Below, one piece after another: positions 1 through 11,900 of a stretch of 13,530 nucleotides of DNA. A program made the translations under genes and the position numbers. The notes under the pieces were generated by a model. It was given only the letters and a program-made list of their open reading frames with translations, did not search any database and was not told the origin of the DNA. How positions within the stretch are numbered: position 1 is the first letter of the stretch; every line of letters begins with the position of its first letter. Origin of the DNA: Candidatus Iainarchaeum sp. (GTDB lineage: Archaea > Iainarchaeota > Iainarchaeia > Iainarchaeales > DTGL01); contig JAVYME010000001.1 in the NCBI GenBank assembly GCA_038736825.1, positions 1 to 13,530 of the forward strand, given 5' to 3'.

Positions 1-1199
1 TGCATGTTGAAGGCTTTCCCCCAAAAACAATATTAAAGGCTTTGAGCACCACAGACCTTGAATTGAAGCCATTGCTGCCCCCTGACAAGGATCCATGCGA
101 AAGAATAATAGACTATTATGGTGGAAAAAAAGACGATCCAACCACTTGCCTTTACTTTGAGGGACCCCCAAACGAGGGACAAATGTACAAGGACCTGCAA
201 AGAATGTATCCCAATAAAAGCAAGGAATTCTTGATGACAGAGCTTGCAATCCAAAAAGCTCGCTTTTTCACAATGCCAGGCAACGATATAACCCAGTACA
301 ATATTGTTTTCGGCATAATGCTCACAGCAGCCGCTTGCTTTTTCACATGGTTCTATTTTAGGAACATTTACAAGCGCAGAATCCAGGAAAAAATAATGAC
401 AATAGAAACAGAATTCAAGGACTCTTTATACATAATTGCTTCAAGGCTTGGGGAAAACAAGCCCTTAGAGGAAGCAATAAGGCATGCAAAAGAATTCCTG
501 CCAAACTACATTATTTCAGACAGAATTTTTGGCAGAACCCTGGACAACATTCACTTGCTTGGCATGCCCATAGACTCAGCAGTGTTTGACCCACGCTTTG
601 GCTCGCTAGTGAACATTCCATCAAACACAATCCATGTTGGAATGCGCTTGGTGATAGATGCAACAAGGCTTGGAGTCAACATTGCAGCAAGAACACTGGT
701 GTCATTGTCACTCCAGCTTGACAATCAGGAAAAGGTTGCAAAAATGCTCAAAAACCTGGTTGTAGACTTAACCCAGATGATGAGAACAATGGCAATAATA
801 ATAACCCCCATAGTGCTAGGCATAACCACAGCGCTTTACACAGTGGTATTGCGCACTCTCTTAAGAATCGCCACTTCCGAAACAATGTCAGGAATAGAGG
901 AATCAAGCAAGGCAGCACGGGAAGCCGGAGCCTTTGGAGGCTTCACTTCAGGCAGTTTTGCAAAAGCAGAAGCAGTAATCAACATGGTAACCCCGGAATG
1001 GTTCATAATAATCATTGCAGTTTACGTGATTGAAATAGTGTTCATTGTAATCTATTTCACCACAAAAATAGAGGAAGACAACGACTTGCTCATGAAAATA
1101 TACCTTGCAAAATACCTTCCAATTGCACTAATAATGTTCGCAATATCCGTAACCCTTTCCAATCTTCTCCTCAACTCCTTTGGAGTGGTTGGAGGATGA
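1..1199 (+). CDS. Polytopic membrane platform protein of a type IV filament system (T2SS-F domain; FlaJ/TadC/PilC-like), 5'-partial
   Basis: The track ORF 42..1199 starts at a TTG. The same frame (codons from nt 3: H V E G F P P K T I L K A ...) has no stop back to the window edge, so the gene is probably truncated by the window. The translation has a soluble helical block (ETEFKDSLYIIASRLGENKPLEEAIRHAKEFLP...GMPIDSAVF...LVIDATRLGVNIAARTLVSLSLQL). Hydrophobic helices flank it (IVFGIMLTAAACFFTWFYF; AIIITPIVLGITTALYTVVL; WFIIIIAVYVIEIVFIVIYF; LPIALIMFAISVTLSNLLL). This is the layout of a T2SSF-type domain. It sits directly upstream of pilin-like genes, and its stop overlaps the next start (ATGA at 1196-1199). 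Confidence 0.6.
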   Translation, partial: HVEGFPPKTILKALSTTDLELKPLLPPDKDPCERIIDYYGGKKDDPTTCLYFEGPPNEGQMYKDLQRMYPNKSKEFLMTELAIQKARFFTMPGNDITQYNIVFGIMLTAAACFFTWFYFRNIYKRRIQEKIMTIETEFKDSLYIIASRLGENKPLEEAIRHAKEFLPNYIISDRIFGRTLDNIHLLGMPIDSAVFDPRFGSLVNIPSNTIHVGMRLVIDATRLGVNIAARTLVSLSLQLDNQEKVAKMLKNLVVDLTQMMRTMAIIITPIVLGITTALYTVVLRTLLRIATSETMSGIEESSKAAREAGAFGGFTSGSFAKAEAVINMVTPEWFIIIIAVYVIEIVFIVIYFTTKIEEDNDLLMKIYLAKYLPIALIMFAISVTLSNLLLNSFGVVGG

Positions 1200-1666
1200 A
1201 AACAAAAAAAAGCGAAAAAGGCATGTTTTGGCCCTTCAGGCTGCTCATTGCAGTAATCATTGCATTTGCAACCCTAATCATAATTCTTAGCACAATAAAC
1301 TATTTCCACCAGTACAGGCTCAAAGTCAGCTGGCAAAGGTTTTTGAACGCTTTTGAAGATGCCTACAATGCCCCAAGCACTCCAAGCCAGCCGGACAAAG
1401 GCATAAAAATAGAAAAAGACCTCGTGTTTGGCACAACCACAATTTCCTCAATAACCCTGGCACAACAATTCAACATGCCAGAGGAATGCATTACCTTTCA
1501 AGCACCAGGCTATTCGCAAATTGAAATCTTAAACTCTGGAAAAACCGCAAAAATCTCAAGGGAAATCAATTCAGCAGTATACTTTCAATGCATTGTTGAC
1601 GAAACAGACACTGCCTGCAAAACACGCTGCTATATTTCCTTCAGCCTTCCGCCGGAAATCCCCTAA
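1196..1666 (+). CDS. Small pilin-like protein with class III (type IV prepilin-like) signal peptide
   Basis: The 156-aa ORF is translationally coupled to the upstream gene (ATGA overlap, with GGAG/GGAGG just upstream). The N-terminus is MKTKKSEKG|MFWPFRLLIAVIIAFATLIIILS: a short basic leader ending in KG, then a ~22-residue hydrophobic helix. The helix and the C-terminal Cys pattern (..VYFQC..TAC..TRCYISFS) parallel the ORF at 7575 and the N-terminus of the ORF at 1704. Confidence 0.6.
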   Translation: MKTKKSEKGMFWPFRLLIAVIIAFATLIIILSTINYFHQYRLKVSWQRFLNAFEDAYNAPSTPSQPDKGIKIEKDLVFGTTTISSITLAQQFNMPEECITFQAPGYSQIEILNSGKTAKISREINSAVYFQCIVDETDTACKTRCYISFSLPPEIP

Positions 1667-1703: not shown

Positions 1704-4700
1704 ATGGAACAAAACACTTTCAGGCTGGCAGCATACGCTATAATTGCAGCAGTCCTGCTCTACATTTTCTTCTTCCACTTCGGCCCGCAATACATCTGGA
1801 AGGAAAAACCAGAACAAGTAATCCAAAACCAGCTCAAAACAGCGGAAACACAGATAGGGCATTACTCGCACCAAAAAGGAGAATTCCCAAAAGGCTTCAC
1901 AGTAATGGCAGACGGCTATGAATCCCAGTCAAGAAACGTAAACTTTGAATGCAATTACGATGTTTTCTGTTGCCCGAAAGGCGAGCCCTGCAATAAAGCA
2001 ATAGAATGGGACAACAACATGGAACGCCGCTATTTTTCCTTCAAACAACAAAAGCCAGTGGATGTATCAGCAAGATGCAGATACGAAGAAATATACATTT
2101 GCAAAGTATACCTTGGAAAAGAACCCGCACAAGTAAAAATAACAGAAACCGCACTATCAGAAAAAACCCTGGACTTGTCCCAAAAAAGAACCACCACAAT
2201 AAACTACAGCATAAAAAACACTGGCCAAAAAGAAATGGTTGCAGTGCAAGCAAAAGCCAAACTCTACAAAATCAAAAGGCTTCCATACGGGCTTGAACCG
2301 GAAAAAACACTCGTACGCGAATTCAAAGGAGAAGAATTCGCGCTCGGCATCGGACAAGAAAAAAGCCAAGAAATAAGCATAGCAATAGAGGAAAACGGCG
2401 ATTACCAGATAGAATTAACAGTGGAAGAAAAAACCGATCGCACAAACTATGAAACAAAAAAACTGGACTTGAACGCCACAGGACTGGTGGAAATCGGGGC
2501 ATGCATTCCAGGCCCAATGGAAAAAGAATATTTTTCAGAAAAAGAATGCCGTTACTATTTGCCCTGCGAAGACTGCAAAAGCATCCTGGAATGCGAAAGA
2601 AAATGGCGGGAAAAATTCTCAAACCTGCAAGGCTTTGAATTCGAATTAAAAAAATACGATGACATAAAAGGCAAAATAATAATGCAAGTGCCAGGCGAAC
2701 ACAGAAGGGAATGCACGCGCAACTGTTACCCAGAATACCAAGTGCTGCAACAACTAGCAAGATCAAGAAAACCCATAGACTTGGTTTTCGTAATAGACGC
2801 TTCAGGCTCCATGAGCGACGACATAGATGAAGTGCGCGGCGTAATAGAAAAAATACAGCAAGAAATAAGCACTGGCTGCAAAATAGGCGAAGACCAAGTG
2901 GGAGTGACACCAGAAGAATGCCTGCAAATAGGCTTGTATGTTTTTGAAGGCTCTTTCAAGGACTGCTGGGAAAACCCGCAAAACCCGTTCTTTGCAAACT
3001 GCTTGAAACAAATGCGAAGCACCCCCCTGGTCACACAATACGATTCCTATGCATATGTTGCATGCTTGAACGCTGAAGCAAACTTAGTCGACTTCTATAA
3101 AAAAAAATGCCCAAATTATTCAAGCCCACAGACACAGGCAATGTGCCAGAAAATTTTAACAGAAGTTGGAAGCGACACCCTGAAAAAAAACATTGATTCA
3201 AGGATACCGCAATCATGCAGGGAAACAACCTATTTCCAAAACCCCTTGAATGCAACCCCATCACTTAACGGCGTACAGTCAGACATAGGATATATTCCAA
3301 TAACAACAGAATTTGAAAAAATAAACGAATCCCTTGGAAGGATTATTGCCTCACAGGGCGTCGAGGCATGGAGTGACGCACTATACTTTGTAATGGCTTC
3401 ACCTCAAATGAACTGGAGACCCAACTCTGAAAAAGCAATAATCCTGATAACCGACACTGCAGACAACCCCAACGGAATCACCTATCTCACTCCAGAAGGG
3501 CCTTACACTGAAACAGAAGGCTCAGAGAAAAGCTTGCAGGAAACAGCGCTTCTCGCACAAGAGAAAAAAATAAGGGTTTTTTCGCTGGAAGGAAAAGGCT
3601 GTGATGCTTTTTCAAACGAAATCAAAACAGCACTCAATAATTACCTTTCAAGCTTTGGTTTAGAGTCAGCAGGAGGGTACCCTGAAGTCTGCCCTGGAAC
3701 AGACCTTGCAGCAATAAGCAATTGGACCAATGGCAGCCACATGCAATACAATCAAGCAAGCGATCTCCCGCAAAAAATACTGGACATTGTAAAGGACGAA
3801 GTGAGAAGAGCAAGCGAAAACCATGTCTTGAAAATCTGTGGAGAAAACGAAGCACCGGAAACCTGCAAGGAATACTGTGCACTGCCATGGGAAAGCAAGT
3901 GCCAGGACTGCTCTTGCTTTAAAGAATTTGATGGAAAAATTGAAGGTTACAGGCTGCTTGACCTAGCACTAATAATTGATGCCACTGGAAGCATGCAAAA
4001 AGAACTCCAGACAATGAAGGAAAAAATCGGAGAAATACTAGATGCCGCGCAAGCAGAATGCAAAAAAATCGGTGTAAAAAACTGCCTTAGTGTTTCCACA
4101 AGGTATGTGTTCGGCGGGCCAACCACAAAAAACCAGCCTTTTTCAAGCAACATGCAAGCAATAAAAAACAATATTGCAAGCGCCACCGCACTTGGAGGCG
4201 GAGACCTTCCAGACCCATGGGCGGGAGAAGCCCTGATTTCACTCAAAGGAATAATAAGGGAAAACAAAACAGAGCAATGGAGCCCGCACTCCAAAAAAAT
4301 AATGGTGATAATCACTGACGCTCCAAACAATCCCGACGAAATAGTCTTTGAAGACTATAGAAGAACAGTAAAAGCCACTCCAGCCACAACAGGAATAGAC
4401 AGCGTGATAACAGAATTAAGAGACACCGCAAAAAGAAACGGAATAAAAATTTTAGGACTTTACAGCGAAGACAATCCAGCCATTTCACCAAAAACACAGC
4501 TTGAATGGCTTGCAAGGGAAACCGGTGGAAAAGCAGTCAATTACACAAAAGGACAGGATTTTTCAAGCGAAATCACTTCACTGATAGTGCAAGAAATAAA
4601 AAGCGAAAGCGAAAAATCATGGTGCACTCCAGACCAGTGCAAGGTTTGCGCGGAAAGAACAGAGGATGCAGCCACAGTGCCACTTGAATGGGAATACAAG

Positions 4701-6008
4701 CTGAGCTGCACTGAAGACACAGAAAAATGCATGACTGTAATGACCTGCTATCCAGCCGAACTTTCCTTCACTGAATGCATTAAAAAATGGACTGAAACAG
4801 TTGTTGACAAAAGCACTCCATTATTGCAAGACCAGGAAAAAAAATGGCTTTACGCTGAAGGCATAAAGAAAAAAAACGGCGTGAAAACAAGCGAAGAAGA
4901 CTGGACTGAATGCGATCTGCCAAAAATAACAGAAACCTGTGGGGGCAGCACAGTGAAAAGAGGCGAATACAGGCCAGTGCAAATAGGTCCGTATGTGAGC
5001 CCAAGGGAAAACTGCACGAGCAATGAAGACTGCGAAACAATGGATTGCAGCACAAAACAATGCCCTGAAGGCCAAACTGCAAAAGGCGAATGCAGTGCCA
5101 GTGGAAAATGCGAGTGCACTTGCAGTGAAGAAATCGGAAAATTGCCTTCTACAGCCAGTGAAATTGAATGCGTTGAAAAACTTGCTGAAACCGATAACTG
5201 TTATTGTGAAACAGGCAATGAAGCACTGGAATACGCTGACAGGGTGCGAGAAGGCGGAAAGCCAGTGGACTTGCTATTGGTTGTTGACGCCACTTACAGC
5301 ATGCAACTTGAAGGAAAAGCTCTCGTGGAAGCATTCAGTGCACTAAACGAAAAAATGAAAGAACCCTGTGTTTTGGAAGACGGAAAAGCCTGCCTTGCTG
5401 TCGGCATAATAACAGTTGGAGGTTATGCAGCCCAGCGTGAAAAAAACCATTTCGTGAAAATTTCCGGTTCAGGCTTTCCCGTCCTTGAAAAAGGCTTGGG
5501 AGCAATAAGCATTTCCCATCGCTCGGAAGACATTGAAAAAATGCTTTCCTCTCTTGAAACCATTGGCTTTGTTGAAGAAGAAGAACCCTGGGCTGACGCC
5601 ATAGCATATGCTTTGAAATCGCCGGCAATGGGTTGGAGAGAAAACGCAAAAAAAGCATTACTGCTTATTGCAGGTGAACCAAATAATGCTTCAAAAACAG
5701 CGCTGGCTGAAGCAAAAAACATTATTGCCTCCAGCAATGCATCAGTTTATGCGGCTGTCAAAAACATGTCAACTGGCGGAATGTCGCCAGAAAAAGACGC
5801 ACAGGCAATAAGTGCAAAAAAAATATCCCCTTATTCCATTCAATTAGCACTAGACTATTCAAAAATCCAGTTCGATGATTCAGGCAAACCCTTTACAGAC
5901 ATACTCAAAATATTCTTGAAAGACATTGCAGAAGAACAAATATTGTTTGCAAAGAAAACCCCAAAATGCGCTCCAGAAAAATGCACTGAATGCAAAACCG
6001 CCGGATAA
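1704..6008 (+). CDS. Giant (1434 aa) cysteine-rich surface protein: pilin-like N-terminal module, CARDB-like Ig domain and three vWA/MIDAS modules (candidate modular pilin or pilus-associated adhesin)
   Basis: Uninterrupted 4.3-kb ORF. The N-terminus MEQNTFRLAAYAIIAAVLLYIFFF aligns with the hydrophobic helices of the two small pilin-like ORFs (PFRLLIAVIIAF / TFKLLIAAIVAV). The following ~110 aa share RNV.F.C and C.V.L-type motifs with them. Three vWA beta1/MIDAS signatures are present: DLVFVIDASGSM (nt 2778), DLALIIDATGSM (nt 3960) and DLLLVVDATYSM (nt 5268). Each is followed by a (P)W(A/S)(D/G) helix and a hydrophobic beta4 strand (ILITDTADN / VIITDAPNN / LLIAGEPNN). Confidence 0.75.
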   Translation: MEQNTFRLAAYAIIAAVLLYIFFFHFGPQYIWKEKPEQVIQNQLKTAETQIGHYSHQKGEFPKGFTVMADGYESQSRNVNFECNYDVFCCPKGEPCNKAIEWDNNMERRYFSFKQQKPVDVSARCRYEEIYICKVYLGKEPAQVKITETALSEKTLDLSQKRTTTINYSIKNTGQKEMVAVQAKAKLYKIKRLPYGLEPEKTLVREFKGEEFALGIGQEKSQEISIAIEENGDYQIELTVEEKTDRTNYETKKLDLNATGLVEIGACIPGPMEKEYFSEKECRYYLPCEDCKSILECERKWREKFSNLQGFEFELKKYDDIKGKIIMQVPGEHRRECTRNCYPEYQVLQQLARSRKPIDLVFVIDASGSMSDDIDEVRGVIEKIQQEISTGCKIGEDQVGVTPEECLQIGLYVFEGSFKDCWENPQNPFFANCLKQMRSTPLVTQYDSYAYVACLNAEANLVDFYKKKCPNYSSPQTQAMCQKILTEVGSDTLKKNIDSRIPQSCRETTYFQNPLNATPSLNGVQSDIGYIPITTEFEKINESLGRIIASQGVEAWSDALYFVMASPQMNWRPNSEKAIILITDTADNPNGITYLTPEGPYTETEGSEKSLQETALLAQEKKIRVFSLEGKGCDAFSNEIKTALNNYLSSFGLESAGGYPEVCPGTDLAAISNWTNGSHMQYNQASDLPQKILDIVKDEVRRASENHVLKICGENEAPETCKEYCALPWESKCQDCSCFKEFDGKIEGYRLLDLALIIDATGSMQKELQTMKEKIGEILDAAQAECKKIGVKNCLSVSTRYVFGGPTTKNQPFSSNMQAIKNNIASATALGGGDLPDPWAGEALISLKGIIRENKTEQWSPHSKKIMVIITDAPNNPDEIVFEDYRRTVKATPATTGIDSVITELRDTAKRNGIKILGLYSEDNPAISPKTQLEWLARETGGKAVNYTKGQDFSSEITSLIVQEIKSESEKSWCTPDQCKVCAERTEDAATVPLEWEYKLSCTEDTEKCMTVMTCYPAELSFTECIKKWTETVVDKSTPLLQDQEKKWLYAEGIKKKNGVKTSEEDWTECDLPKITETCGGSTVKRGEYRPVQIGPYVSPRENCTSNEDCETMDCSTKQCPEGQTAKGECSASGKCECTCSEEIGKLPSTASEIECVEKLAETDNCYCETGNEALEYADRVREGGKPVDLLLVVDATYSMQLEGKALVEAFSALNEKMKEPCVLEDGKACLAVGIITVGGYAAQREKNHFVKISGSGFPVLEKGLGAISISHRSEDIEKMLSSLETIGFVEEEEPWADAIAYALKSPAMGWRENAKKALLLIAGEPNNASKTALAEAKNIIASSNASVYAAVKNMSTGGMSPEKDAQAISAKKISPYSIQLALDYSKIQFDDSGKPFTDILKIFLKDIAEEQILFAKKTPKCAPEKCTECKTAG
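2133..2430 (+). other. CARDB-like / Ig-like beta-sandwich domain inside the giant ORF
   Basis: Segment KITETALSEKTLDLSQKRTTTINYSIKNTGQKEMVAVQAKAKLYK...EISIAIEENGDYQIELTVEE. The ..v.v.NtG....v.v.l. pattern is typical of CARDB-type domains. Recognised by eye only. Confidence 0.4.
2778..3600 (+). other. vWA module 1 (complete DxSxS MIDAS motif; contains a long insertion)
   Basis: DLVFVIDASGSMSDDIDEV ... GLYVFEGS ... VEAWSDALYFVMASP..NSEKAIILITDTADNPNG ... KKIRVFSLEG. The C-terminal boundary is approximate. Confidence 0.6.
3960..4600 (+). other. vWA module 2 (DxTxS MIDAS variant)
   Basis: DLALIIDATGSMQKELQTMKEKIGEIL ... RYVFGG ... DPWAGEALISL ... SKKIMVIITDAPNNPDE ... NGIKILGLYSED. Boundaries are approximate. 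Confidence 0.6.
5268..5940 (+). other. vWA module 3 (degenerate MIDAS: DxTxS, with the beta4 Asp position replaced)
   Basis: DLLLVVDATYSMQLEGKALVEAF ... GIITVGG ... EPWADAIAYALKSP..NAKKALLLIAGEPNN ... ASVYAAVKN. The residue equivalent to the TD of modules 1 and 2 is AG. Boundaries are approximate. Confidence 0.5.
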
Positions 6009-6029: not shown

Positions 6030-7429
6030 ATGTTGAAAAAAAACTGTTTTCTTTTGTTTTAGCCTTGCTTTTTACTGCTGTCACAGTAAATGCAATTTAC
6101 ACTGAATTTTTGCTTGCATTTTATCTACAAAACCAGACAGCATTTATAAAAACTGCAATTTTTGAAAACCAAATGGAAGAAATTGATAGGGCTTTCAGCC
6201 TTGGAACCGATCTTTCCACACTAAGAAGAAACGCTCAAAGCCCGGAATGGATTAAAGGAGAAAACGCGCTTGTCACGCGAATTAAAACCGAAATGCCTGC
6301 AACAGGAATAGGGTACTCCATTCTAAGAGACGGAATTGAATTAGACGGCGTGAGCACCACTTTACGCTTAGGTGACACCATTTCATTCAAGCCAAAAGTG
6401 GAAATTCCCTCTGATTGGACACAAGTCGGCGGAGTCATAGGCACTCCACCAATACAATTCCTAGCAGACCAAGAAAGAGACTCACTATACCTGAAACTCT
6501 TGCAAAAATTCAAGCAAAACTATCCCACTGGGCACCACTTCAACCATGTCTACAACTATATAGCCTTGGGAGCACAAGAAAAGTTTTCAACAAACCGCAC
6601 AACCTTCAAAACCACAGAAGACAATTACCTTGCAAGCAACGGATTTCCAGCATACATTACCCCAATAGCGGATGGAAGAAAAGCCGGAATCCAGATATTT
6701 TGCTCAAACAATTTGCGAAGCGAAACCCTTGAATGCATTGGCAAAGGAGAAACACTGGAATGCACAGTAAAAAAAAGCGGTTTGGCAGAAATAAGCTTGG
6801 AAAAAAACTGCTTTGTGCATGTTGACAAAATAATTTATGGAAACGAGGCAATAGACGCTGGATGGGTTTCACAGTTAGGCAGTCTTTCAGACAACACAAC
6901 ATACTATCCGCTCATGGTTTGGGGCAGCTATAAACTGGAATTGCAAGTAATTCCAAAAGGAAAAATTCCACCAGTAGCGGAATTAGAATGCACGGTTTTA
7001 AGCAAACCGCAACCACAAAACCCTTTGGGAGAAATAGAATGCAATGCATCACAATCCTATGACCCTGATGGAAAAATAGAAAGATTTGAATGGGATAAAG
7101 ACAAAACCGCTCCACCATTGCAAGTAAAATACAGAAGAAAGACTGCTTCAGAAGCTGCCGTAACACTGCGAGTCTATGACAATGACGGACTCTATGGAGA
7201 AAAAACCAAAATAGTTTATTGGGAAGGCGAACCAAAAAAACTGGAATTGTCAGCAGAATACAATGCTCCTACAAAAAAAGCAATGATTTCACTCAAAAAC
7301 TGCCCGCAAGGCACCACCCAAGCATTCATAGACATAGACTTATTGCAAGAAACAGATGCAAAAAAAACCCTTTCAGTTCTAGAAAAGCAACAATTCCATG
7401 CGAGCAAACCACTGCAGTTGGACCCATAA
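6030..7429 (+). CDS. Secreted PKD-domain protein; the reading frame is interrupted at an A8 tract right after the probable ATG start
   Basis: The track ORF is 6065..7429 with a TTG start. GGAGGG at 6016-6021 lies 8 nt before ATG 6030. From that ATG the frame gives MLKKNCFLLF then a stop at 6060-6062. One extra A in the A8 run (6036-6043) would give MLKKKLFSFVLALLFTAVTVNA|IYTEF, a textbook Sec signal peptide fused to the long ORF. A PKD-like signature lies downstream (see the separate feature). Confidence 0.6.
6036..6043 (+). repeat. A8 homopolymer at the frame break between ATG 6030 and the 6065..7429 ORF
   Basis: Counted directly: ...atgttg aaaaaaaa ctgtttt... A +1 (or -2) change in length restores a single ORF with a signal peptide. 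Confidence 0.8.
6980..7225 (+). other. PKD-like domain
   Basis: ELECTVLSKPQPQNPLGEIECNASQSYDPDGKIERFEWDKDK...AAVTLRVYDNDGLYGEKTKIVYW. This matches the S.DPDG.I..Y.WD ... v.D..G pattern characteristic of PKD domains. Confidence 0.6.
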
Positions 7430-7574: not shown

Positions 7575-8183
7575 ATGAATTTTTTAGGGGTGAAGAAAGT
7601 GTTTTTTTTGGGACAAAAAGGACAAGCCTTTTCTACATTCAAATTGTTGATTGCTGCAATTGTGGCAGTAGTGATACTGGTTATTTTGCTTTCAATTTTG
7701 GGCATAATAAATTTTTCGCCCAGAAACCAGCCGATTGTGGGTGCAACTGATGCTTTAAAGGAAGCATACCAGACAAAGACTCTTCTTTACACTAGCCGAG
7801 AGCCAGTGACTTTCACAAGGGATAACAGTATTATTACCAGCATGGCAATAGTGGAAAGAGCAAATGTTGGGTTGGCTGAAGACCAAGTGTGCTTGAGTTT
7901 GGGAGAATTGACAGATGCTGCCTCATTAGCTGGGTTTAAAGGAAATGATGAAGGCGCTTGGAAAAAAATAGAATACACTGCTGGCGGTCAAAGGAACGTA
8001 AAGTTTGCAGTTCTATGCATGGAGGGAAAGAGCATTCCAGACCAGGTTGGAAGCGACCAGGTTGGAAGCGGCAACACCTATCAAGATATAGACGAGGCTT
8101 GGGTTGAAAACTGCCCTTGCGTGAAGGATAAAACCATTAACAAAGACATTTGCTGCGTTATAATGCTAAAGTATGCAAGGTAA
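7575..8183 (+). CDS. Pilin-like protein with class III signal peptide (KGQ|AFS type)
   Basis: 202-aa ORF. The N-terminus is MNFLGVKKVFFLGQKG|QAFSTFKLLIAAIVAVVILVILLSILGIINF. The KGQ-x-S context followed by a ~25-residue hydrophobic helix resembles archaeal type IV pilin/Epd-type prepilins. The C-terminal half is Cys-containing (VCLSLG, AVLCMEG, NCPCVKD, DICCVIMLKY). A GTG at 7590 (giving MKKVFFLGQKG|Q) is an alternative start. Confidence 0.65.
   Translation: MNFLGVKKVFFLGQKGQAFSTFKLLIAAIVAVVILVILLSILGIINFSPRNQPIVGATDALKEAYQTKTLLYTSREPVTFTRDNSIITSMAIVERANVGLAEDQVCLSLGELTDAASLAGFKGNDEGAWKKIEYTAGGQRNVKFAVLCMEGKSIPDQVGSDQVGSGNTYQDIDEAWVENCPCVKDKTINKDICCVIMLKYAR
8040..8069 (+). repeat. Perfect 15-bp tandem duplication (gaccaggttggaagc x2), in frame inside the pilin-like gene (DQVGS-DQVGS)
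   Basis: Unit 1 is 8040-8054 and unit 2 is 8055-8069. They are identical when read directly from the sequence. Confidence 0.9.
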
Positions 8184-8206
8184 AAAAAAAAACAGAATGG
8201 AACAAA

Positions 8207-8845
8207 ATGGTTTCAAAAAAACCCGCGGGCTTTTTTCAAAAAGCCCGTTCTTTTTTTTATCGCGGCCTTGAAGGAATTGCAGTTGAAGAGTTCAGGGAGA
8301 AGGCTGGCGAAGAGGCAAAAAAATCTGCAAAATTTTTGTTTTTAGCCTTTTTCTTTATTTTTGCCCTTTTTGTGCTTTCAAGCCTTGTGCCATTGGAGTG
8401 GAGTGAAAGGCTTGTGGCAAACACTGTGCTTTACGGCTTGAACTCGCAAGGCTTGAAGGGCAGAATTGAAGCCTCTCCCACTGGAGATGCTGTCCTGATA
8501 TTATTGGAAAACGGTCCAAGAATAGAAATATCGTATCTTTGCACTGGGCTTTTGGAAACAATATTGCTTGCTGGAGTTATTTTAGCCTCTGCAGGCATTC
8601 CAATATATAAAAGAATAATTGGTGTGATTGTTGGAGGGATTGCTGCAATGGTTTTAAACCTTGCAAGGATTTTCATCACTATTTTTTTCATTTACAATTC
8701 TGGCATTGAAACAGTGGAATTCATTCACGATTTTTTTTTCCGTGCCTTCCTGTTTGTTTCGGTTTTCTGCATTTATGCTTTTTGGTTTAAGTGGGCGACA
8801 GGCGGTTTCAGTGAAAGGCAGTCTGTAAAAAAAAAAACAGGTTGA
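8207..8845 (+). CDS. Exosortase/archaeosortase-family integral membrane protein (short form, ~212 aa)
   Basis: The track gives a TTG at 8150, which overlaps the previous gene. The first in-frame ATG after that gene's stop is 8207 (MVSKKPAGFF...). The protein is multi-pass hydrophobic. It has the family-like signature order Cys in EISYLCTGLLETILLAG (codon 8540-8542), Arg in AMVLNLARIFITIFF (8666-8668), then IHDFFFRAF (His 8726-8728, Arg 8741-8743). This resembles the CSG ... N..RI ... H/R motifs of exosortase/archaeosortase enzymes. Recognised by eye only. Confidence 0.65.
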   Translation: MVSKKPAGFFQKARSFFYRGLEGIAVEEFREKAGEEAKKSAKFLFLAFFFIFALFVLSSLVPLEWSERLVANTVLYGLNSQGLKGRIEASPTGDAVLILLENGPRIEISYLCTGLLETILLAGVILASAGIPIYKRIIGVIVGGIAAMVLNLARIFITIFFIYNSGIETVEFIHDFFFRAFLFVSVFCIYAFWFKWATGGFSERQSVKKKTG

Positions 8846-8859
8846 AGCCGGGATTAATG

Positions 8860-8896
8860 AAAAAGTATAATAATAACTATTGAGCATTAATTAACT
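8860..8896 (+). promoter_or_regulatory. AT-rich candidate promoter region for the untracked giant ORF
   Basis: Two TATA-like strings are present: agtataataata (about 8864-8875) and ttaattaa (8887-8894). A weak SD-like aaggga (8914-8919) precedes ATG 8927. I cannot tell which element, if either, is used. Confidence 0.25.
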
Positions 8897-8926
8897 GGCT
8901 CTTCATTGCAATCAAGGGATTCAAAT

Positions 8927-11900
8927 ATGGGTGTTTCTGACTCTTTGAGCGGTATTTACATTAAGGCAGAGGATGCCTGGTACAAGCTGGTGGACTCGCT
9001 TTCAGAAAAAGGCATTCCATTATATGCTTACACTGATTTTTTGGACAAGCGCGGCATTCCAAGTTTTCCTTTCACAATTGCCCTCATATTCATTTTGTTG
9101 GCGCTTGCAATTTTTTTCCTTGCAGGAAACAATGTAGAAGTGAACCTCAGACTGCGCTTTTCCGACGAAGAAGGAAATCCAGTAAACGATGTTTCAGTGT
9201 CTGTTTCATATGATAGTGGCACAGCAATAGGGAGCCAGAAAATGGCAAGCAATTCCACTTGGACTATTAAAAACGTGCCAATGAACTCTAAAATTGTTGT
9301 TTCTCCGAGAAAAGAGGGCTTTGAACCTCCAAAAGAGCAAACCATTGTTGCTGACGGGCGAAAAGAACACCCTCTTTCTTTTTCCTTTAAAAAACCGCGC
9401 ACTTACATTACCGGCTTACTGCAAGTGAAATCTTCCACTGGCACAACAATAAAGAACGCTGAATGCCTTGTTTTGACTGATGAAAAACGCCAAATAAAAG
9501 GCTTGCAGGTTGAAGACAAGATTTCTTTTGCCAACGTGCCAGCCGGCATTCCGGTTGTTTTGACTTGCAGTGCAAGTGGGTATGAAAGCATAGATGAAGA
9601 GGAAGTCATATTCAAAAAAGACACTGTTTACTTTGTTTCAATGAATCCCAAAACCGCAGGTCTTGAAGGAAAAGAGCGCGTGAACGTGCTTTTCAGGTTG
9701 CTTGACAAGGAATCAAAAGAACCAGTGGGAATTGCCAAAATCAGGATTTTCAAAGAAGGCGATGAAAAGCCATTGTTTGAGGATGAAACAGATGAAACAG
9801 GAGAGTATGTTGCAGAGATTTTAGCTGGAACCATAATAAGGGCTTCAATTGAAGCCCAAGGCTATATTTCAAAAAACACTGATCCTGTCACTGTTGTCAA
9901 AGAAATGCCTCCAATAATTGTATTAATGGAATTGGGTGGCAGGACTGTTTCTGTCACAGTTGTTTCAAAAACCGGACTGCCAGTGAATGACGTGATTGTT
10001 TCATTGTACACTGAGGACGGCGTTCTAATTGAATCCAAAAAAACCACTAGCGGGCCTTTTGGCGGAAACGCTGTTTTTGCAAACTTGGATCCAAACAAAA
10101 CCTATTACCTTACTGCATACAAGCAGGGTTTTTTGCCAAAGCGCGTCAAATTCTCTCCATCAGAAGAACCTGACTTGAAAATAGAGCTTGAAAACGCAAG
10201 CCCGAGCAATTCTGCAAGGCTTACTCTCACGGTTTTGGATTCAGAGGGCTTGCCTGCAAAAAATGCAAAAATAAGGTTTTATGCATTAGAGGGTGACAAA
10301 AAGGTTCCGCTTGGCATTCCACAAATGGAAACAGACATGCAGGGAAAAGTCAGCGTTATAGTGCCAGAAGGCAAACTGTTAGTGGAGGCAGAAACAGACA
10401 CTGAAATCCAGAGAAAAGAGTTTGACATCAAGGCGGGCAATGATGTCACTGACACGATTTCAATGGAGCGCAAACCCAACCTTGTGGAATTAAAGTTTTT
10501 GGATGACGAGGGAAACCCGATAAAGGGCGACATCATAATTCGCTCTAAAAGCGGGGAAATTCTTTTCAAGGGGCGTCCCTCCAAGGACGGAACAGTGGTT
10601 TTTGACGCAAAGGGCAATGAAACCTTTGACGTGGAAGTCACAACTGATAACGGCAAAAAGTTCACTGAAGAGGTTAGGATTGGGGGAGAAAAAAAAGCCA
10701 CTGTCACAATTACAACAACTGAAGCAAAGCTTTTCCCAAAAATAGAGTTTGCTGGAGTGTTTGACGGAAAAGGGCAAAAAGTGGAAGGCATTTCAAGAGG
10801 AGAATTTTACTGGCTCAAGTTTGTTGTTTCCTGGCAGAGCAATGAACAGGCAGGCGTTCACATAAGGCTTGGCGAAGACGAAAAACCCTTTGCTGAATCC
10901 ATGGAATTCGGTGTTTACGGGTTTGATGCTGTTGCCAGAAGGTTTTTTTACGGGAAAAGCTATCAGCCTCCCTTGGGCACAAGGGAAGACAAAGCCAATT
11001 CTGGAACCGCGGGAGAAAAAAACAAGTTTGTTGAATTGTATTTTGACCAGCCAGCGGACCAGCAAGTGATAAAGGTTAAAGTGAAAGCCAACGAAATTGG
11101 CACTGCAACAAAAATGCCTGTTTATTTCAGGGCTTGGGTGAAAGCAGGCACTCAATATTACAGGGATCCCGAAGACAGCGAGCTTGAAAAGGCATTGAGC
11201 ACAAACACCAAGGCATCCCTTTACGCTGCCACCAAAAAAGAAGAAGTCAAAATCTTTTCCTCAAAGCCAAAGTGCGCTGAAGGAATATGCATTGAAGCCT
11301 CCTTCTTTGATGATGAAAGCAGAGAGCAAAAAAGCCAGGATTTCAGGGCAGTGATTGGAAGAAGGTATGCAATAGAGGCAAGGGTTAGCGCTGACGCTGT
11401 AAAAACCGTGGAATTGACTGCAGAAACAACAGAACAGGAAAAAATAAGGTTTTCAGAATTCAGGGAGGGCACAAGCACTCTCTGGCCTGATTCAGGCTAT
11501 GACAAGCAAAGCGTTTCAATAAGCGGATTGCGGGTTTCAGAGTCAACCACTGCAAGAGCAAGAGCCTATTTTGAGGCAAAAGCCCAAGGCACTGGATATA
11601 TTAAAATAACAGCAAGAGAAGGCGAAAAACAGGCAGAGCAAAAGTTTTATTTCAAGATAACAGGCATAAGGGAAATGGATTTAGTGCTTGCAGGCAATGG
11701 TTCCATAAAACCGGGTGAAAAGCTCTCACTAACCTTAAAAGAAAAAGAAACCGGTTATGCATTGACAGACGCACAATTCACTGTTCTTTCCGGTGAAAGG
11801 CCTGTTCTTTTCTTTAAGGGAACAGGTGAGGAAGGCAATGGCCTTGACGGCAAATATCTTTTGGGAACCGAAACACTTGGCCCTGGCGCTTACAAGTTGA

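What the first reader, a model, noticed from the sequence alone, without database searches (positions are those of the whole stretch)
1704..6008. Candidate giant modular pilin: a pilin-like N-terminal module fused to a CARDB-like domain and three vWA adhesion modules
The first ~140 aa of this 1434-aa protein look paralogous to the two small pilin-like ORFs in the locus.
- The hydrophobic N-terminal helices align: TFRLAAYAIIAAVLLYIFFF vs PFRLLIAVIIAFATLIIIL and TFKLLIAAIVAVVILVILL.
- Later motifs also align: SRNVNFEC vs QRNVKFAVLC and NSAVYFQC; IYICKVYLGK vs DICCVIMLKY and TRCYISFS.

The remaining ~1300 aa carry three vWA modules separated by Cys-rich linkers. Known parallels exist in bacteria. 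TadG-type pseudopilins of Tad pili and PilY1 carry vWA domains, and Streptococcus sanguinis PilB is a pilin with a grafted vWA module. An archaeal pilin-like protein carrying three vWA modules in one 1434-aa chain would be an extreme form of that design, and I do not recognise it as a described family. Unlike the small paralogs, it lacks a basic leader ending in Gly before the helix (it begins MEQN-TFRL). It may therefore be an uncleaved membrane-anchored version rather than a filament subunit.
Basis: partly seen in the sequence, partly recalled or inferred. Interest (0 to 1): 0.85.

Follow-up and report, generated by a model that had tools for sequence, protein, structure and literature searches.

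The report
Leaderless pilin-like triple-vWA archaeal adhesin
A 1,434-residue surface protein of a tiny DPANN archaeon (Candidatus Diapherotrites/Iainarchaeum) has a pilin-derived N-terminal module without the usual cleavable leader, followed by three vWA adhesion domains, and it is encoded inside a type IV pilus gene cluster, so it is a good candidate for the adhesin this cell uses to hold on to other cells or surfaces.

Summary
ORF 1704-6008 is a real, conserved 1434-aa gene with one N-terminal TM helix and 56 cysteines.

- **vWA modules:** there are three paralogous modules. Two pass Pfam cut-offs. The third is tied to them by hhalign at 98-99.8%.
- **Pilin-like N-terminus:** residues 1-145 are homologous at profile level to the two small pilin-like ORFs (hhalign 97.9% and 96.8%). 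This still beats column shuffles once the helix is removed. Other TM proteins of the same loci score 0.1-11% (56-aa pilin: 64%, helix only).
- **No leader:** a stop lies 7 codons upstream with no alternative start. The same holds in six related genes.
- **Family:** residues 1-~340 match a family of at least 191 clusters; named members are all Diapherotrites. Most members are about 320 aa and 83% are leaderless. Three keep a KGQ/RGQ leader. Some long members carry peptidoglycan hydrolases instead of vWA.
- **Context:** vWA-bearing orthologues sit beside the pilus ATPase, platform and pilin genes in 7 of 7 loci with enough flank. The short base family does not.

Not shown: a pilin fold, or incorporation into a filament. 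I rate it a new variant of a known kind (modular pilin / TadG-like). Interest 0.6.

The parts
1704..6008 (+). Whole gene: 1434-aa leaderless pilin-like triple-vWA protein
   Evidence: ORF list and translation. Full-length homologues at 33-48% identity and 98-99% coverage. Single TM, 56 Cys, 13 sequons.
1704..2138 (+). N-terminal pilin-derived carrier module (residues 1-145): Met1, F6-R7-L8 motif, TM helix about residues 5-27 (nt 1716-1784), short helix, then a Cys-stabilised beta domain ending C133-x-V-Y-L-G-x-x-P-A-Q
   Evidence: hhalign to both small pilin-like families, 97.9% and 96.8%, with shuffle and specificity controls. 191 cluster representatives in the exhaustive search. Residues 5-14 are the most conserved stretch.
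2151..2489 (+). Ig-like beta-sandwich, CARDB-like (residues about 150-262)
   Evidence: PF07705 at 17.4-19 bits, below the 22.7 cut-off. 5 of 42 family members hit CARDB, best E 7e-5. PDB profile hits to beta-sandwich domains are weak. UniRef names relatives 'CARDB domain-containing protein'.
2502..2726 (+). Cys knot closing the base architecture (residues 267-341; C267, C288, C291 and C297 invariant in the family)
   Evidence: Alignments A6 and A7.
2766..3818 (+). vWA module 1 (residues about 355-705) with a ~145-residue Cys-containing insertion. MIDAS D365-x-S367-x-S369, T534, D584 invariant in 7 homologues
   Evidence: PF00092 31.6 bits, above cut-off. Invariant columns. hhalign to modules 2 and 3.
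3837..3938 (+). Cys-rich linker 1 (residues 712-745)
   Evidence: Cys positions. C712, C721, C725, C733 and C736 invariant.
3951..4589 (+). vWA module 2 (residues about 750-962); D759-x-T-x-S763; ITD at residues 873-875
   Evidence: PF25106 VWA_4, 37 bits over the full-length profile. Absent from homologue P0003.
4623..5207 (+). Cys-rich linker region 2 (residues 974-1168, 21 Cys)
   Evidence: Variable length among homologues.
5256..5948 (+). vWA module 3 (residues about 1185-1415); D1195-x-T-x-S1199. The MIDAS Asp position is Gly in the window protein (LLIAGEPNN)
   Evidence: Pfam only 16.6 bits. hhalign 99.8% to module 1 and 98.1% to module 2. Alignment.
1196..1666 (+). 156-aa pilin-like gene with a class-III-type leader (MKTKKSEKG|MFWPFRLLIAV). 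Closest leader-bearing relative of the giant's N-module, immediately upstream
   Evidence: Family alignment A4. hhalign over 127 columns including the shared terminal motif C-x-[VI]-x-F-G-x-x-P-[AE].
7575..8183 (+). 202-aa (or 194-aa) pilin-like gene with a ..GQKG|QAFSTFKLLIAAIVA leader
   Evidence: 34 homologues with near-invariant G16, Q17 and FKLLIAAIVA. AF2 pLDDT 87, long N-terminal helix plus alpha/beta domain.
3..1199 (+). C-terminal half of the pilus platform protein (TadC/PilC/FlaJ type), cut by the window edge
   Evidence: 76% identical to residues 390-785 of the 785-aa protein that follows the T2SSE ATPase in L005. That protein hits T2SSF weakly, E 6e-4.
8150..8845 (+). Exosortase/archaeosortase-family gene (locus context, not part of the giant)
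   Evidence: TIGR04178 42.8 bits (cut-off 23); PF09721 26.4 bits.

Best explanation
The gene encodes a pilus-associated surface adhesin built on a pilin-derived carrier.

**Shown**
- Residues 1-145 are a homologue of the locus's own pilin-like proteins.
- This module has lost the cleavable class III leader. Met1 sits where residue +1 of the processed neighbour would sit (M1-E-Q-N-T-F6-R7-L8 against Q+1-A-F-S-T-F+6-K+7-L+8).
- Residues 1-~340 (pilin-like module, Ig-like sandwich, Cys knot) are the complete architecture of a Diapherotrites family.
- Three paralogous vWA modules with Cys-rich linkers have been added after residue ~340.

**Inferred**
- The protein inserts N-in/C-out and needs no prepilin peptidase.
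- The ATPase/platform machine encoded beside it takes up its helix as a priming, low-copy subunit. The ~1,300-residue disulfide-rich ectodomain then ends up at the distal tip of the filament.
- vWA modules 1 and 2, whose MIDAS residues are intact, bind ligands on a partner cell or surface through a bound metal ion. Module 3 has a degenerate MIDAS in this protein.
For: **Architecture**
-.

**Pilin ancestry**
- hhalign 97.9% and 96.8% over 123-127 columns.
- The signal persists without the helix, 6-12 SD above column shuffles.
- Other TM proteins of the same loci score 0.1-11%; the 56-aa pilin scores 64%, helix only.
- Three family members keep MKGQ-, NQKGQ- or SRGQ- leaders directly before the same F-R-L motif.
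- The first ten helix residues are the most conserved part of the module, 2.52 bits, as in type IV pilins.

**Leaderless state**
- It is genuine in 7 genes.

**Context**
- ATPase (T2SSE, E 7.7e-17), platform protein and pilin-like genes flank the vWA-bearing orthologues in the window and in L001, L002, L005, L017, L018 and L019.
- The closest leader-bearing relative (ORF 1196 type) lies immediately upstream in the window, L005 and L017.

**Modularity**
- The same base carries 0, 1, 2 or 3 vWA modules, or peptidoglycan hydrolases.

**Precedent**
- S. sanguinis PilB is a pilin with a grafted vWA module. Its authors consider modular pilins likely to be tip-exposed (PMC8179133).
Against: - No fold evidence. 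AF2 of the N-module gave pLDDT 56. Foldseek and PDB searches found no pilin for it or for the well-modelled ORF 7575.
- No Pfam pilin model matches either protein, so even the 'pilins' used as reference are inferred.
- No direct evidence that a leaderless subunit can be assembled.
- The known leaderless archaellin-like proteins ArlF and ArlG are not filament subunits of the archaellum (PMC10117864).
- The ~320-aa base family is encoded next to DNA ligase and an ~80-aa membrane protein, with no pilus genes within 10 kb, in 5 of 5 loci examined.
- P0006 and its 564-aa paralogue in L004 are also outside a pilus locus.
Confidence: 0.45

Rival explanations
1. Same pilin-derived architecture, but the protein is never polymerised. 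Without a leader it simply stays in the membrane as a type II anchored adhesin, or as a base or anchor element of the pilus. This would resemble ArlF/ArlG in the archaellum, or the role proposed for TadG in Tad pili.
For: - The leaderless N-terminus is conserved in 83% of the family.
[quoted passage not shown] - Base-family genes lie outside pilus loci, and some carry murein hydrolases that could act from the cell surface.
Against: - A plain anchor would not need to keep the whole pilin globular domain, nor the strongly conserved F-[KR]-L-L-V-x-A-I motif shared with the leader-bearing pilins.
- The vWA-bearing clade has specifically moved into the pilus operon.
Confidence: 0.35
2. The hydrophobic N-terminus is an ordinary Sec signal peptide that is cleaved, releasing a soluble or S-layer-associated secreted adhesin. 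The likeness to pilins carries no function.
For: - The short polar n-region plus hydrophobic core resembles a signal peptide.
- Neighbouring ~500-aa proteins use classical Sec signals.
Against: - The hydrophobic stretch is long, about 20 residues, and highly conserved in sequence.
- I saw no conserved small-x-small cleavage motif after it by eye; no signal-peptide predictor was run. The helix instead continues into a conserved P28 / helix / G52 pattern.
- Homology extends through the globular part to leader-bearing pilins.
Confidence: 0.08
3. The similarity of residues 1-145 to the small ORFs is convergent or compositional (TM helix plus Cys-rich beta domain). The gene is an unrelated adhesin that merely sits in the pilus locus.
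For: - Pairwise BLASTP aligns only the helix.
- Helix-free hhalign probabilities are only 71% and 46%.
- No structural confirmation.
Against: - Column-shuffle controls that preserve composition reach at most 15.0-16.6, against 32.3 and 27.3 observed.
- Seven other TM-bearing families of the same loci score 0.1-11%.
- Family members carry KGQ leaders in the same register.
- The C-terminal motif C-x-[VI]-x-F-G-x-x-P-[AE] is shared with the ORF 1196 family.
Confidence: 0.1
4. An intracellular vWA regulator of pilus expression, like ArnB or the vWA-MoxR pairs linked to archaeal T4P loci.
For: vWA proteins with regulatory roles are associated with archaeal T4P loci (PMC4858521).
Against: - N-terminal TM helix, 56 cysteines (an even number), Cys-rich linkers and 13 N-glycosylation sequons point to an extracellular protein.
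- No MoxR/GvpN ATPase or FHA partner in any locus.
Confidence: 0.02

Closest known systems
[quoted passage not shown]
   Same: An N-terminal pilin module is followed by a vWA module with a MIDAS. It is encoded in the pilus locus and has an adhesion role. The same 'carrier plus passenger' logic applies: a bacterial InterPro survey found over 1,200 modular pilins in 264 architectures.
   Different: - PilB has a canonical cleaved class III signal peptide with the bacterial IPR012902 motif, one vWA module and about 460 residues.
- The protein here is archaeal and has no leader.
- It has an Ig-like sandwich and Cys knot between carrier and passengers, three vWA modules and 1434 residues.
- No sequence relationship between the pilin modules was detected.
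TadG-type proteins of bacterial Tad/Flp pili (PF13400 N-terminal segment plus vWA)
   Same: A hydrophobic pilin-like N-terminus is followed by a vWA domain, encoded with a TadA/TadC-type machine. It is proposed to anchor or decorate the pilus (PMC4858521). From my own knowledge, Tad systems are thought to descend from archaeal pili.
   Different: - PF13400 is not detected in the giant or in 40 family N-domains, both at E<=1.
- Bacterial TadG proteins have a single vWA.
- Here the N-module includes a complete globular pilin-like domain.
PilY1/PilC tip adhesins (P. aeruginosa PilY1 carries an N-terminal vWA domain)
   Same: A large, non-major, pilus-associated adhesin using vWA, thought to be presented at the tip through minor pilins (PMC8179133 discussion).
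   Different: PilY1 is not a pilin. It has a Sec signal and a C-terminal beta-propeller (IPR008707). No such propeller domain was reported for the giant.
ArlF/ArlG (FlaF/FlaG) of the archaellum
   Same: Archaeal proteins with a pilin/archaellin-type domain and an N-terminal hydrophobic helix but no class III signal peptide. They are encoded in the filament locus (PMC10117864).
   Different: They are small stator or S-layer-binding proteins without passenger domains. No sequence similarity to them was detected here.
[quoted passage not shown]
   Same: The locus type matches: a single platform gene, an ATPase of about 760 aa with a long N-terminal extension, several pilins and large adhesin-like genes.
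   Different: In the preprint these are two separate categories. A term search of its main text found no 'vWA', 'von Willebrand' or 'Diapherotrites'. Here one protein is both.

Membership tests
Archaeal type IV pilins (class III signal peptide proteins) | Short, basic leader ending [KR]-[G/A/S] immediately before the hydrophobic helix, cleaved by a PibD/FlaK/EppA-type peptidase | tested here: not met
   The protein starts MEQNTFRL with a stop 7 codons upstream and no alternative start. The same holds in six related genes. Three family members do have it: MKGQ-, MNQKGQ- and ..SRGQ-.
Archaeal type IV pilins (class III signal peptide proteins) | N-terminal ~20-residue hydrophobic helix that is the most conserved part of the protein | tested here: met
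   The only hydrophobic segment is at residues 5-27. Residues 5-14 carry the highest information content of the module, 2.52 bits.
Archaeal type IV pilins (class III signal peptide proteins) | Sequence homology to recognised pilins | tested here: inconclusive
   Specific profile homology to the two leader-bearing pilin-like families of the locus. Neither they nor the giant hit any Pfam or NCBIfam pilin model. The best PDB pilin hit is E 0.67.
Archaeal type IV pilins (class III signal peptide proteins) | Pilin fold (long N-terminal helix packed on a beta-sheet or beta-sandwich head) | tested here: inconclusive
   AF2 gave helices at 2-30 and 36-48 followed by eight strands, but pLDDT was 56. 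Foldseek found nothing significant. The ORF 7575 model (pLDDT 87) also has no PDB match.
Archaeal type IV pilins (class III signal peptide proteins) | Encoded with a type IV filament ATPase and platform protein | tested here: met
   Window 3-1199 is the platform C-terminus. Collinear loci carry T2SSE and platform genes. Not met for the short base family.
Archaeal type IV pilins (class III signal peptide proteins) | Polymerisation into a filament | not testable with these tools
   Needs microscopy or biochemistry.
von Willebrand factor A domain (PF00092 / PF25106 / PF13519) | Profile match above the curated cut-off | tested here: met
   Module 1: PF00092, 31.6 bits against 23.8. Module 2: PF25106, 37 bits against 27. 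Module 3 is below cut-off at 16.6 bits, but hhalign gives 99.8% and 98.1% to modules 1 and 2.
von Willebrand factor A domain (PF00092 / PF25106 / PF13519) | MIDAS motif DxSxS...T...D | tested here: met
   Module 1: D365, S367, S369, T534 and D584, invariant in 7 sequences. Module 2: DxTxS plus ITD. Module 3: DxTxS, but the Asp position is Gly in the window. Metal binding itself was not tested.
Modular pilins sensu Raynaud et al. 2021 | N-terminal IPR012902 class III motif plus an extra, non-pilus-specific domain | tested here: not met
   The extra domains are present (vWA x3). The bacterial N-terminal motif and leader are absent. The design principle is shared, but formal membership is not.
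TadG | PF13400 (Tad N-terminal pilin-like segment) followed by vWA | tested here: not met
   No PF13400 hit at E<=1 for residues 1-150 or for 40 family N-domains. vWA is present.
CARDB (PF07705) | Profile match above the gathering score of 22.7 bits | tested here: not met
   17.4-19 bits. 5 of 42 relatives hit with best E 7e-5. Best described as a CARDB-like Ig-fold sandwich.
PilY1/PilC | C-terminal beta-propeller (IPR008707) | tested here: not met
   No such family appears among the Pfam hits for the whole protein or its segments.

The most novel reading that the evidence does not exclude
Diapherotrites archaea possess a lineage-specific class of 'pre-matured' type IV pilins. Their translation start replaces prepilin-peptidase cleavage. 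They serve as general carriers that the pilus machine loads first, placing interchangeable passengers at the filament tip. Here the passenger is a triple vWA array. In relatives it is amidase, M23, NlpC/P60 or lytic transglycosylase cell-wall hydrolases. The pilus would then be both the grappling hook and the cell-wall-opening tool these ultra-small archaea use on bacterial partners.
Probability: 0.25. Interest if true: 0.8.

Novelty: new variant of a known kind. Interest (0 to 1): 0.6.

Why it matters
How DPANN archaea attach to and exploit other cells is largely unknown at the molecular level, and Diapherotrites have no cultivated host system. This gene gives a concrete, testable adhesin candidate that is physically linked to a pilus machine.

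It also extends the 'modular pilin' principle, so far surveyed in bacteria (PMC8179133), to archaea. The extension has two twists:
- Loss of the class III leader, so no peptidase step would be needed.
- An unusually large passenger load of three vWA modules.

The family-level finding may be more informative than the giant itself. The same carrier bears peptidoglycan hydrolases in organisms that have no peptidoglycan. That points to bacteria as the interaction partners.

Tried and rejected
- **Pairwise BLASTP** of residues 1-162 against the small ORFs aligned only the helix, so it was too weak on its own.
- **hhalign with the 7-sequence profile** gave 89.9% and 42%. It was superseded by the 142-sequence profile.
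- **AF2 of the N-module** with the 7 sequences the tool allowed gave pLDDT 56, which is unusable. Foldseek on it returned antibody and Ig noise.
- **AF2 of ORF 7575** was good (pLDDT 87), but Foldseek against the PDB found nothing, best E 0.9.
- **PDB sequence searches** with the giant, A1, A3, A5 and A6 gave no significant pilin or vWA structure. PilA 6xxd scored E 0.67.
- **Pfam scans** of 40 N-domains and 33 ORF 7575 relatives at E<=1 hit no pilin, TadE/TadG or Class_IIIsignal family.
- **The search for related loci** with the broad alignment A5 failed for lack of a conserved stretch. A2 was used instead.
- **Archaeosortase substrate:** rejected for the giant. It has no C-terminal TM or sorting signal; it ends ...CTECKTAG.
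- **ArnB-like cytoplasmic regulator:** rejected because of the TM helix, 56 Cys and the lack of a MoxR partner.
- **Annotation artefact for the missing leader:** rejected by the upstream stop codons. In L017 an upstream in-frame ATG could add MGKHLVYS, but that is not class-III-like, and the homology starts at a GTG.
Full report
**What is in the window**

All large ORFs are on the + strand.
- 3-1199: the C-terminal half of a polytopic membrane protein.
- 1196-1666: a 156-aa protein beginning MKTKKSEKG|MFWPFRLLIAV.
- 1704-6008: the 1434-aa ORF of the finding.
- 6065-7429: a 454-aa ORF.
- 7575-8183: a 202-aa protein with ..GQKG|QAFSTFKLLIAAIVA.
- 8150-8845: an exosortase/archaeosortase-family gene (TIGR04178 42.8 bits, cut-off 23).
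- 8891 onward: an ORF of more than 1546 aa that runs off the end.

The two small proteins are 100% and 99% identical to hypothetical proteins QXK06_00010 and QXK06_00025 of a Candidatus Diapherotrites MAG.

**The giant is a real, conserved gene**

The word-indexed search found six homologues. Four align over 98-99% of the query at 33-48% identity (P0001 1437 aa, P0002 1394 aa, P0004 1370 aa, P0005 1394 aa). One hit is annotated Candidatus Diapherotrites.

The protein has a single hydrophobic segment at residues 5-27. It has 56 cysteines, 13 N-x-S/T sequons and no C-terminal anchor. That is the profile of an N-in/C-out, disulfide-rich surface protein.

**vWA modules**

- Pfam passes its own cut-offs for module 1 (PF00092, 31.6 bits) and module 2 (PF25106, 37 bits, full-length profile).
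- Module 3 reaches only 16.6 bits against Integrin_beta.
- Sub-alignments of the three modules match each other by hhalign at 99.8% (3 v 1), 99.7% (2 v 1) and 98.1% (3 v 2). Three paralogous vWA modules are therefore confirmed.
- Module 1 has a complete MIDAS (D365, S367, S369, T534, D584), invariant in all seven sequences, and carries a ~145-residue insertion.
- Module 2 has DxTxS and ITD.
- Module 3 has DxTxS, but the Asp position is Gly in this protein.
- Module number varies among relatives. P0003 lacks module 2. P0006 keeps one module. A 564-aa paralogue has none.

**The N-terminal module**

Pairwise BLASTP aligns only the helix.

An exhaustive profile search with residues 1-148 of seven homologues found 191 cluster representatives at E<=1e-3, of which 129 are at E<=1e-10. 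Almost all match from their own residues 1-5.

With a 142-sequence profile, hhalign aligns:
- residues 3-128 to residues 19-151 of the ORF 7575 family (97.9%, E 5.9e-13);
- residues 3-142 to residues 11-154 of the ORF 1196 family (96.8%, E 2.8e-10). This alignment includes a shared terminal motif, C-x-[VI]-x-F-G-x-x-P-[AE].

Controls:
- With the helix removed, the alignments keep the same register and score 32.3 and 27.3. Column-shuffled controls give 11.4+-1.7 and 11.7+-2.4, with maxima 15.0 and 16.6.
- Seven other families with TM segments from the same loci score 0.1-11% against the same profile. The 56-aa pilin scores 64%, over the helix only.
- The similarity is therefore specific and not a hydrophobicity artefact.

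The SRNVNFEC pairing does not. The QRNVKFAVLC and NSAVYFQC strands align to giant residues 117-126 instead.

**The missing leader**

In the window a stop codon lies seven codons upstream of the ATG, and no start codon intervenes. In six related genes the stop is 0-8 codons upstream.

Across the family, 118 of 142 members have only 3-5 residues before the conserved Phe. The consensus is M-x(2-4)-F-[KR]-[LI]-L-V-[YF]-A-I-x-A, and these first helix residues are the most conserved part of the module.

Three members retain a leader of exactly the type seen in ORF 7575:
- MKGQALGVFRL, whose 90% cluster includes the AR10 / Iainarchaeum protein AJF59588.1;
- MNQKGQAGSAFRLL;
- ..SRGQQGSVFRLL.

If cleavage follows the Gly, Met1 of the giant occupies position +1 of a processed pilin. 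T5-F6-R7-L8 of the giant then lines up with T+5-F+6-K+7-L+8 of ORF 7575. I read this as a pilin lineage in which the start codon has replaced the peptidase cut.

**Base architecture and passengers**

- The modal family member is 315-330 aa. It equals giant residues 1-~340: pilin-like module, an Ig-like sandwich and a Cys knot with invariant C267, C288, C291 and C297.
- The sandwich is CARDB-like but below threshold. The giant scores 17.4-19 bits against a cut-off of 22.7. Five of 42 members hit, best E 7e-5. UniRef calls relatives 'CARDB domain-containing protein'.
- Of 34 long members (431-1401 aa), four carry Peptidase_M23, four NlpC/P60, three Amidase_3, three SLT, one glucosaminidase and one vWA.
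- The carrier-plus-passenger design is thus a property of the family, and the triple vWA array is one passenger set.

**Genomic context**

L005 (Candidatus Iainarchaeum MAG GCA_026396995.1) is collinear with the window. Its gene order is:
1. T2SSE ATPase, 758 aa (E 7.7e-17).
2. A 785-aa platform protein (weak T2SSF, E 6e-4). Window 3-1196 is 76% identical to its C-terminal half.
3. A 160-aa ORF 1196-type pilin.
4. The giant.
5. Secreted ~510-aa proteins.
6. Two ORF 7575-type pilins.
7. An archaeosortase.
8. A giant of more than 1350 aa.

ATPase, platform and pilin genes also flank the vWA giants in L001, L002, L017, L018 and L019. Most of these loci add a divergent operon of five more pilin-like genes.

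By contrast, the short base family lies after DNA ligase and an ~80-aa two-TM protein, with no pilus genes within 10 kb, in 5 of 5 loci. The vWA-less 562-564-aa paralogues and P0006 are in housekeeping contexts. The association with the pilus machine is therefore firm for the vWA clade but not for the family as a whole.

**What could not be shown**

It predicted helices at 2-30 and 36-48 and then eight strands. Foldseek on this model was noise.
- The ORF 7575 model was confident (pLDDT 87; long N-terminal helix, second helix, alpha/beta head). It has no significant PDB neighbour.
- PDB sequence searches and Pfam pilin, TadE/TadG and Class_IIIsignal models gave nothing for either protein.
- The 'pilin' label for the small ORFs rests on leader motif, architecture and context. 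The 'pilin fold' of the giant's module is an inference from profile homology.

**Mechanism**

Most likely (0.45): the protein inserts N-in/C-out and needs no peptidase. The adjacent ATPase/platform machine takes it up as a priming, low-copy subunit. Its ectodomain then caps the filament, and MIDAS-competent vWA modules 1 and 2 bind ligands on a partner. This is the logic demonstrated for S. sanguinis PilB (PMC8179133).

Main rival (0.35): it stays in the membrane as an anchored adhesin or pilus base element. ArlF and ArlG likewise have archaellin domains without class III signals (PMC10117864), and TadG is thought to anchor Tad pili (PMC4858521).

Minor rivals: a cleaved Sec signal (0.08), convergent similarity (0.10) and a cytoplasmic regulator (0.02).

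**Comparison with the literature**

- The 2016 census of archaeal T4P loci mentions vWA only as cytoplasmic regulators (ArnB, MoxR-linked), and mentions TadG as a bacterial parallel (PMC4858521).
[quoted passage not shown] A term search of its main text found no vWA and no Diapherotrites (10.64898/2026.04.22.720090).
- The survey of modular pilins searched InterPro for the IPR012902 pilin motif and describes its results for bacteria only (PMC8179133).

**Verdict**

I found no description of this family. I rate it a new variant of a known kind, with interest 0.6.

Noticed in passing
window 6030-6065: An ATG at 6030 is followed by an A8 run (6036-6043) and a stop at 6060. One extra A would read MLKKKLFSFVLALLFTAVTVNA|IYTEF, a classical Sec signal peptide joined in frame to the 454-aa ORF 6065-7429. 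Its homologues elsewhere start with such signals. This is either a homopolymer assembly error or a phase-variable frameshift.
   Followed up: partly
relatives of the giant's N-module: P0091, P0082, P0134 and others (L009:2285-4450): About a third of the long members of the same leaderless pilin-like family carry peptidoglycan hydrolase domains (Amidase_3, Peptidase_M23, NlpC/P60, SLT, glucosaminidase). The named family members are all archaea (Diapherotrites), which have no murein. This suggests bacterial cell walls as targets.
   Followed up: partly
window 8150-8845; also L005:19575-20234, L018:19882-20391, L020:1059-1751: An exosortase/archaeosortase-family gene overlaps the end of the pilin gene and is conserved at this position. 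No protein in the window has a C-terminal sorting signal. In related loci, ~490-520-aa proteins end in a TM segment plus basic tail and are candidate substrates: L002:15973-17433, L005:15107-16660, L019:5998-7494.
   Followed up: partly
window 8891-13528 (runs off the end); L020:2044-10236: A second giant ORF follows the archaeosortase. The complete homologue is 2730 aa, with about 55 cytoplasmic residues, one TM helix and a very long ectodomain without a C-terminal anchor. In L005 it has faint CarboxypepD_reg/bMG3-type hits.
   Followed up: no
L008, L009, L010, L011, L012: The ~315-330-aa base family is always preceded by DNA ligase. In four of the five loci (L008, L009, L011, L012) a 77-92-aa protein lies between them, read as two-TM in L008 and L009 and overlapping the family gene's start in L008 and L012. 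L010 has larger genes there instead. This is a conserved mini-operon of unknown meaning, with no pilus genes nearby.
   Followed up: partly
L001:9696-9866(-), L002:8106-8276(-), L005:4345-4518(-), L006:9179-9349(-): A 56-57-aa protein (..R[AS]Q[GS]|EWSxxYMLLxLxI..), similar in size to Flp pilins, heads a five-gene operon of pilin-like proteins divergent from the ATPase or giant. One of the five (224-236 aa, M..F.LSK.NLLIL) is also leaderless. The corresponding region lies outside the window.
   Followed up: no
P0166 (4344 aa): A 4344-aa protein with an acidic, low-complexity N-terminus matches the Cys-rich part of the N-module profile in 12 separate stretches. Its origin and meaning are unknown.
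   Followed up: no
L013/L014, L016/L017, L015/L020: Single MAGs carry two close paralogues. One is the vWA giant in the pilus locus. The other, in L014 and L016, is a 562-563-aa vWA-less form in a housekeeping context; in L004 a similar 564-aa form sits next to mevalonate-pathway genes. This suggests duplication followed by recruitment into the pilus operon.
   Followed up: partly
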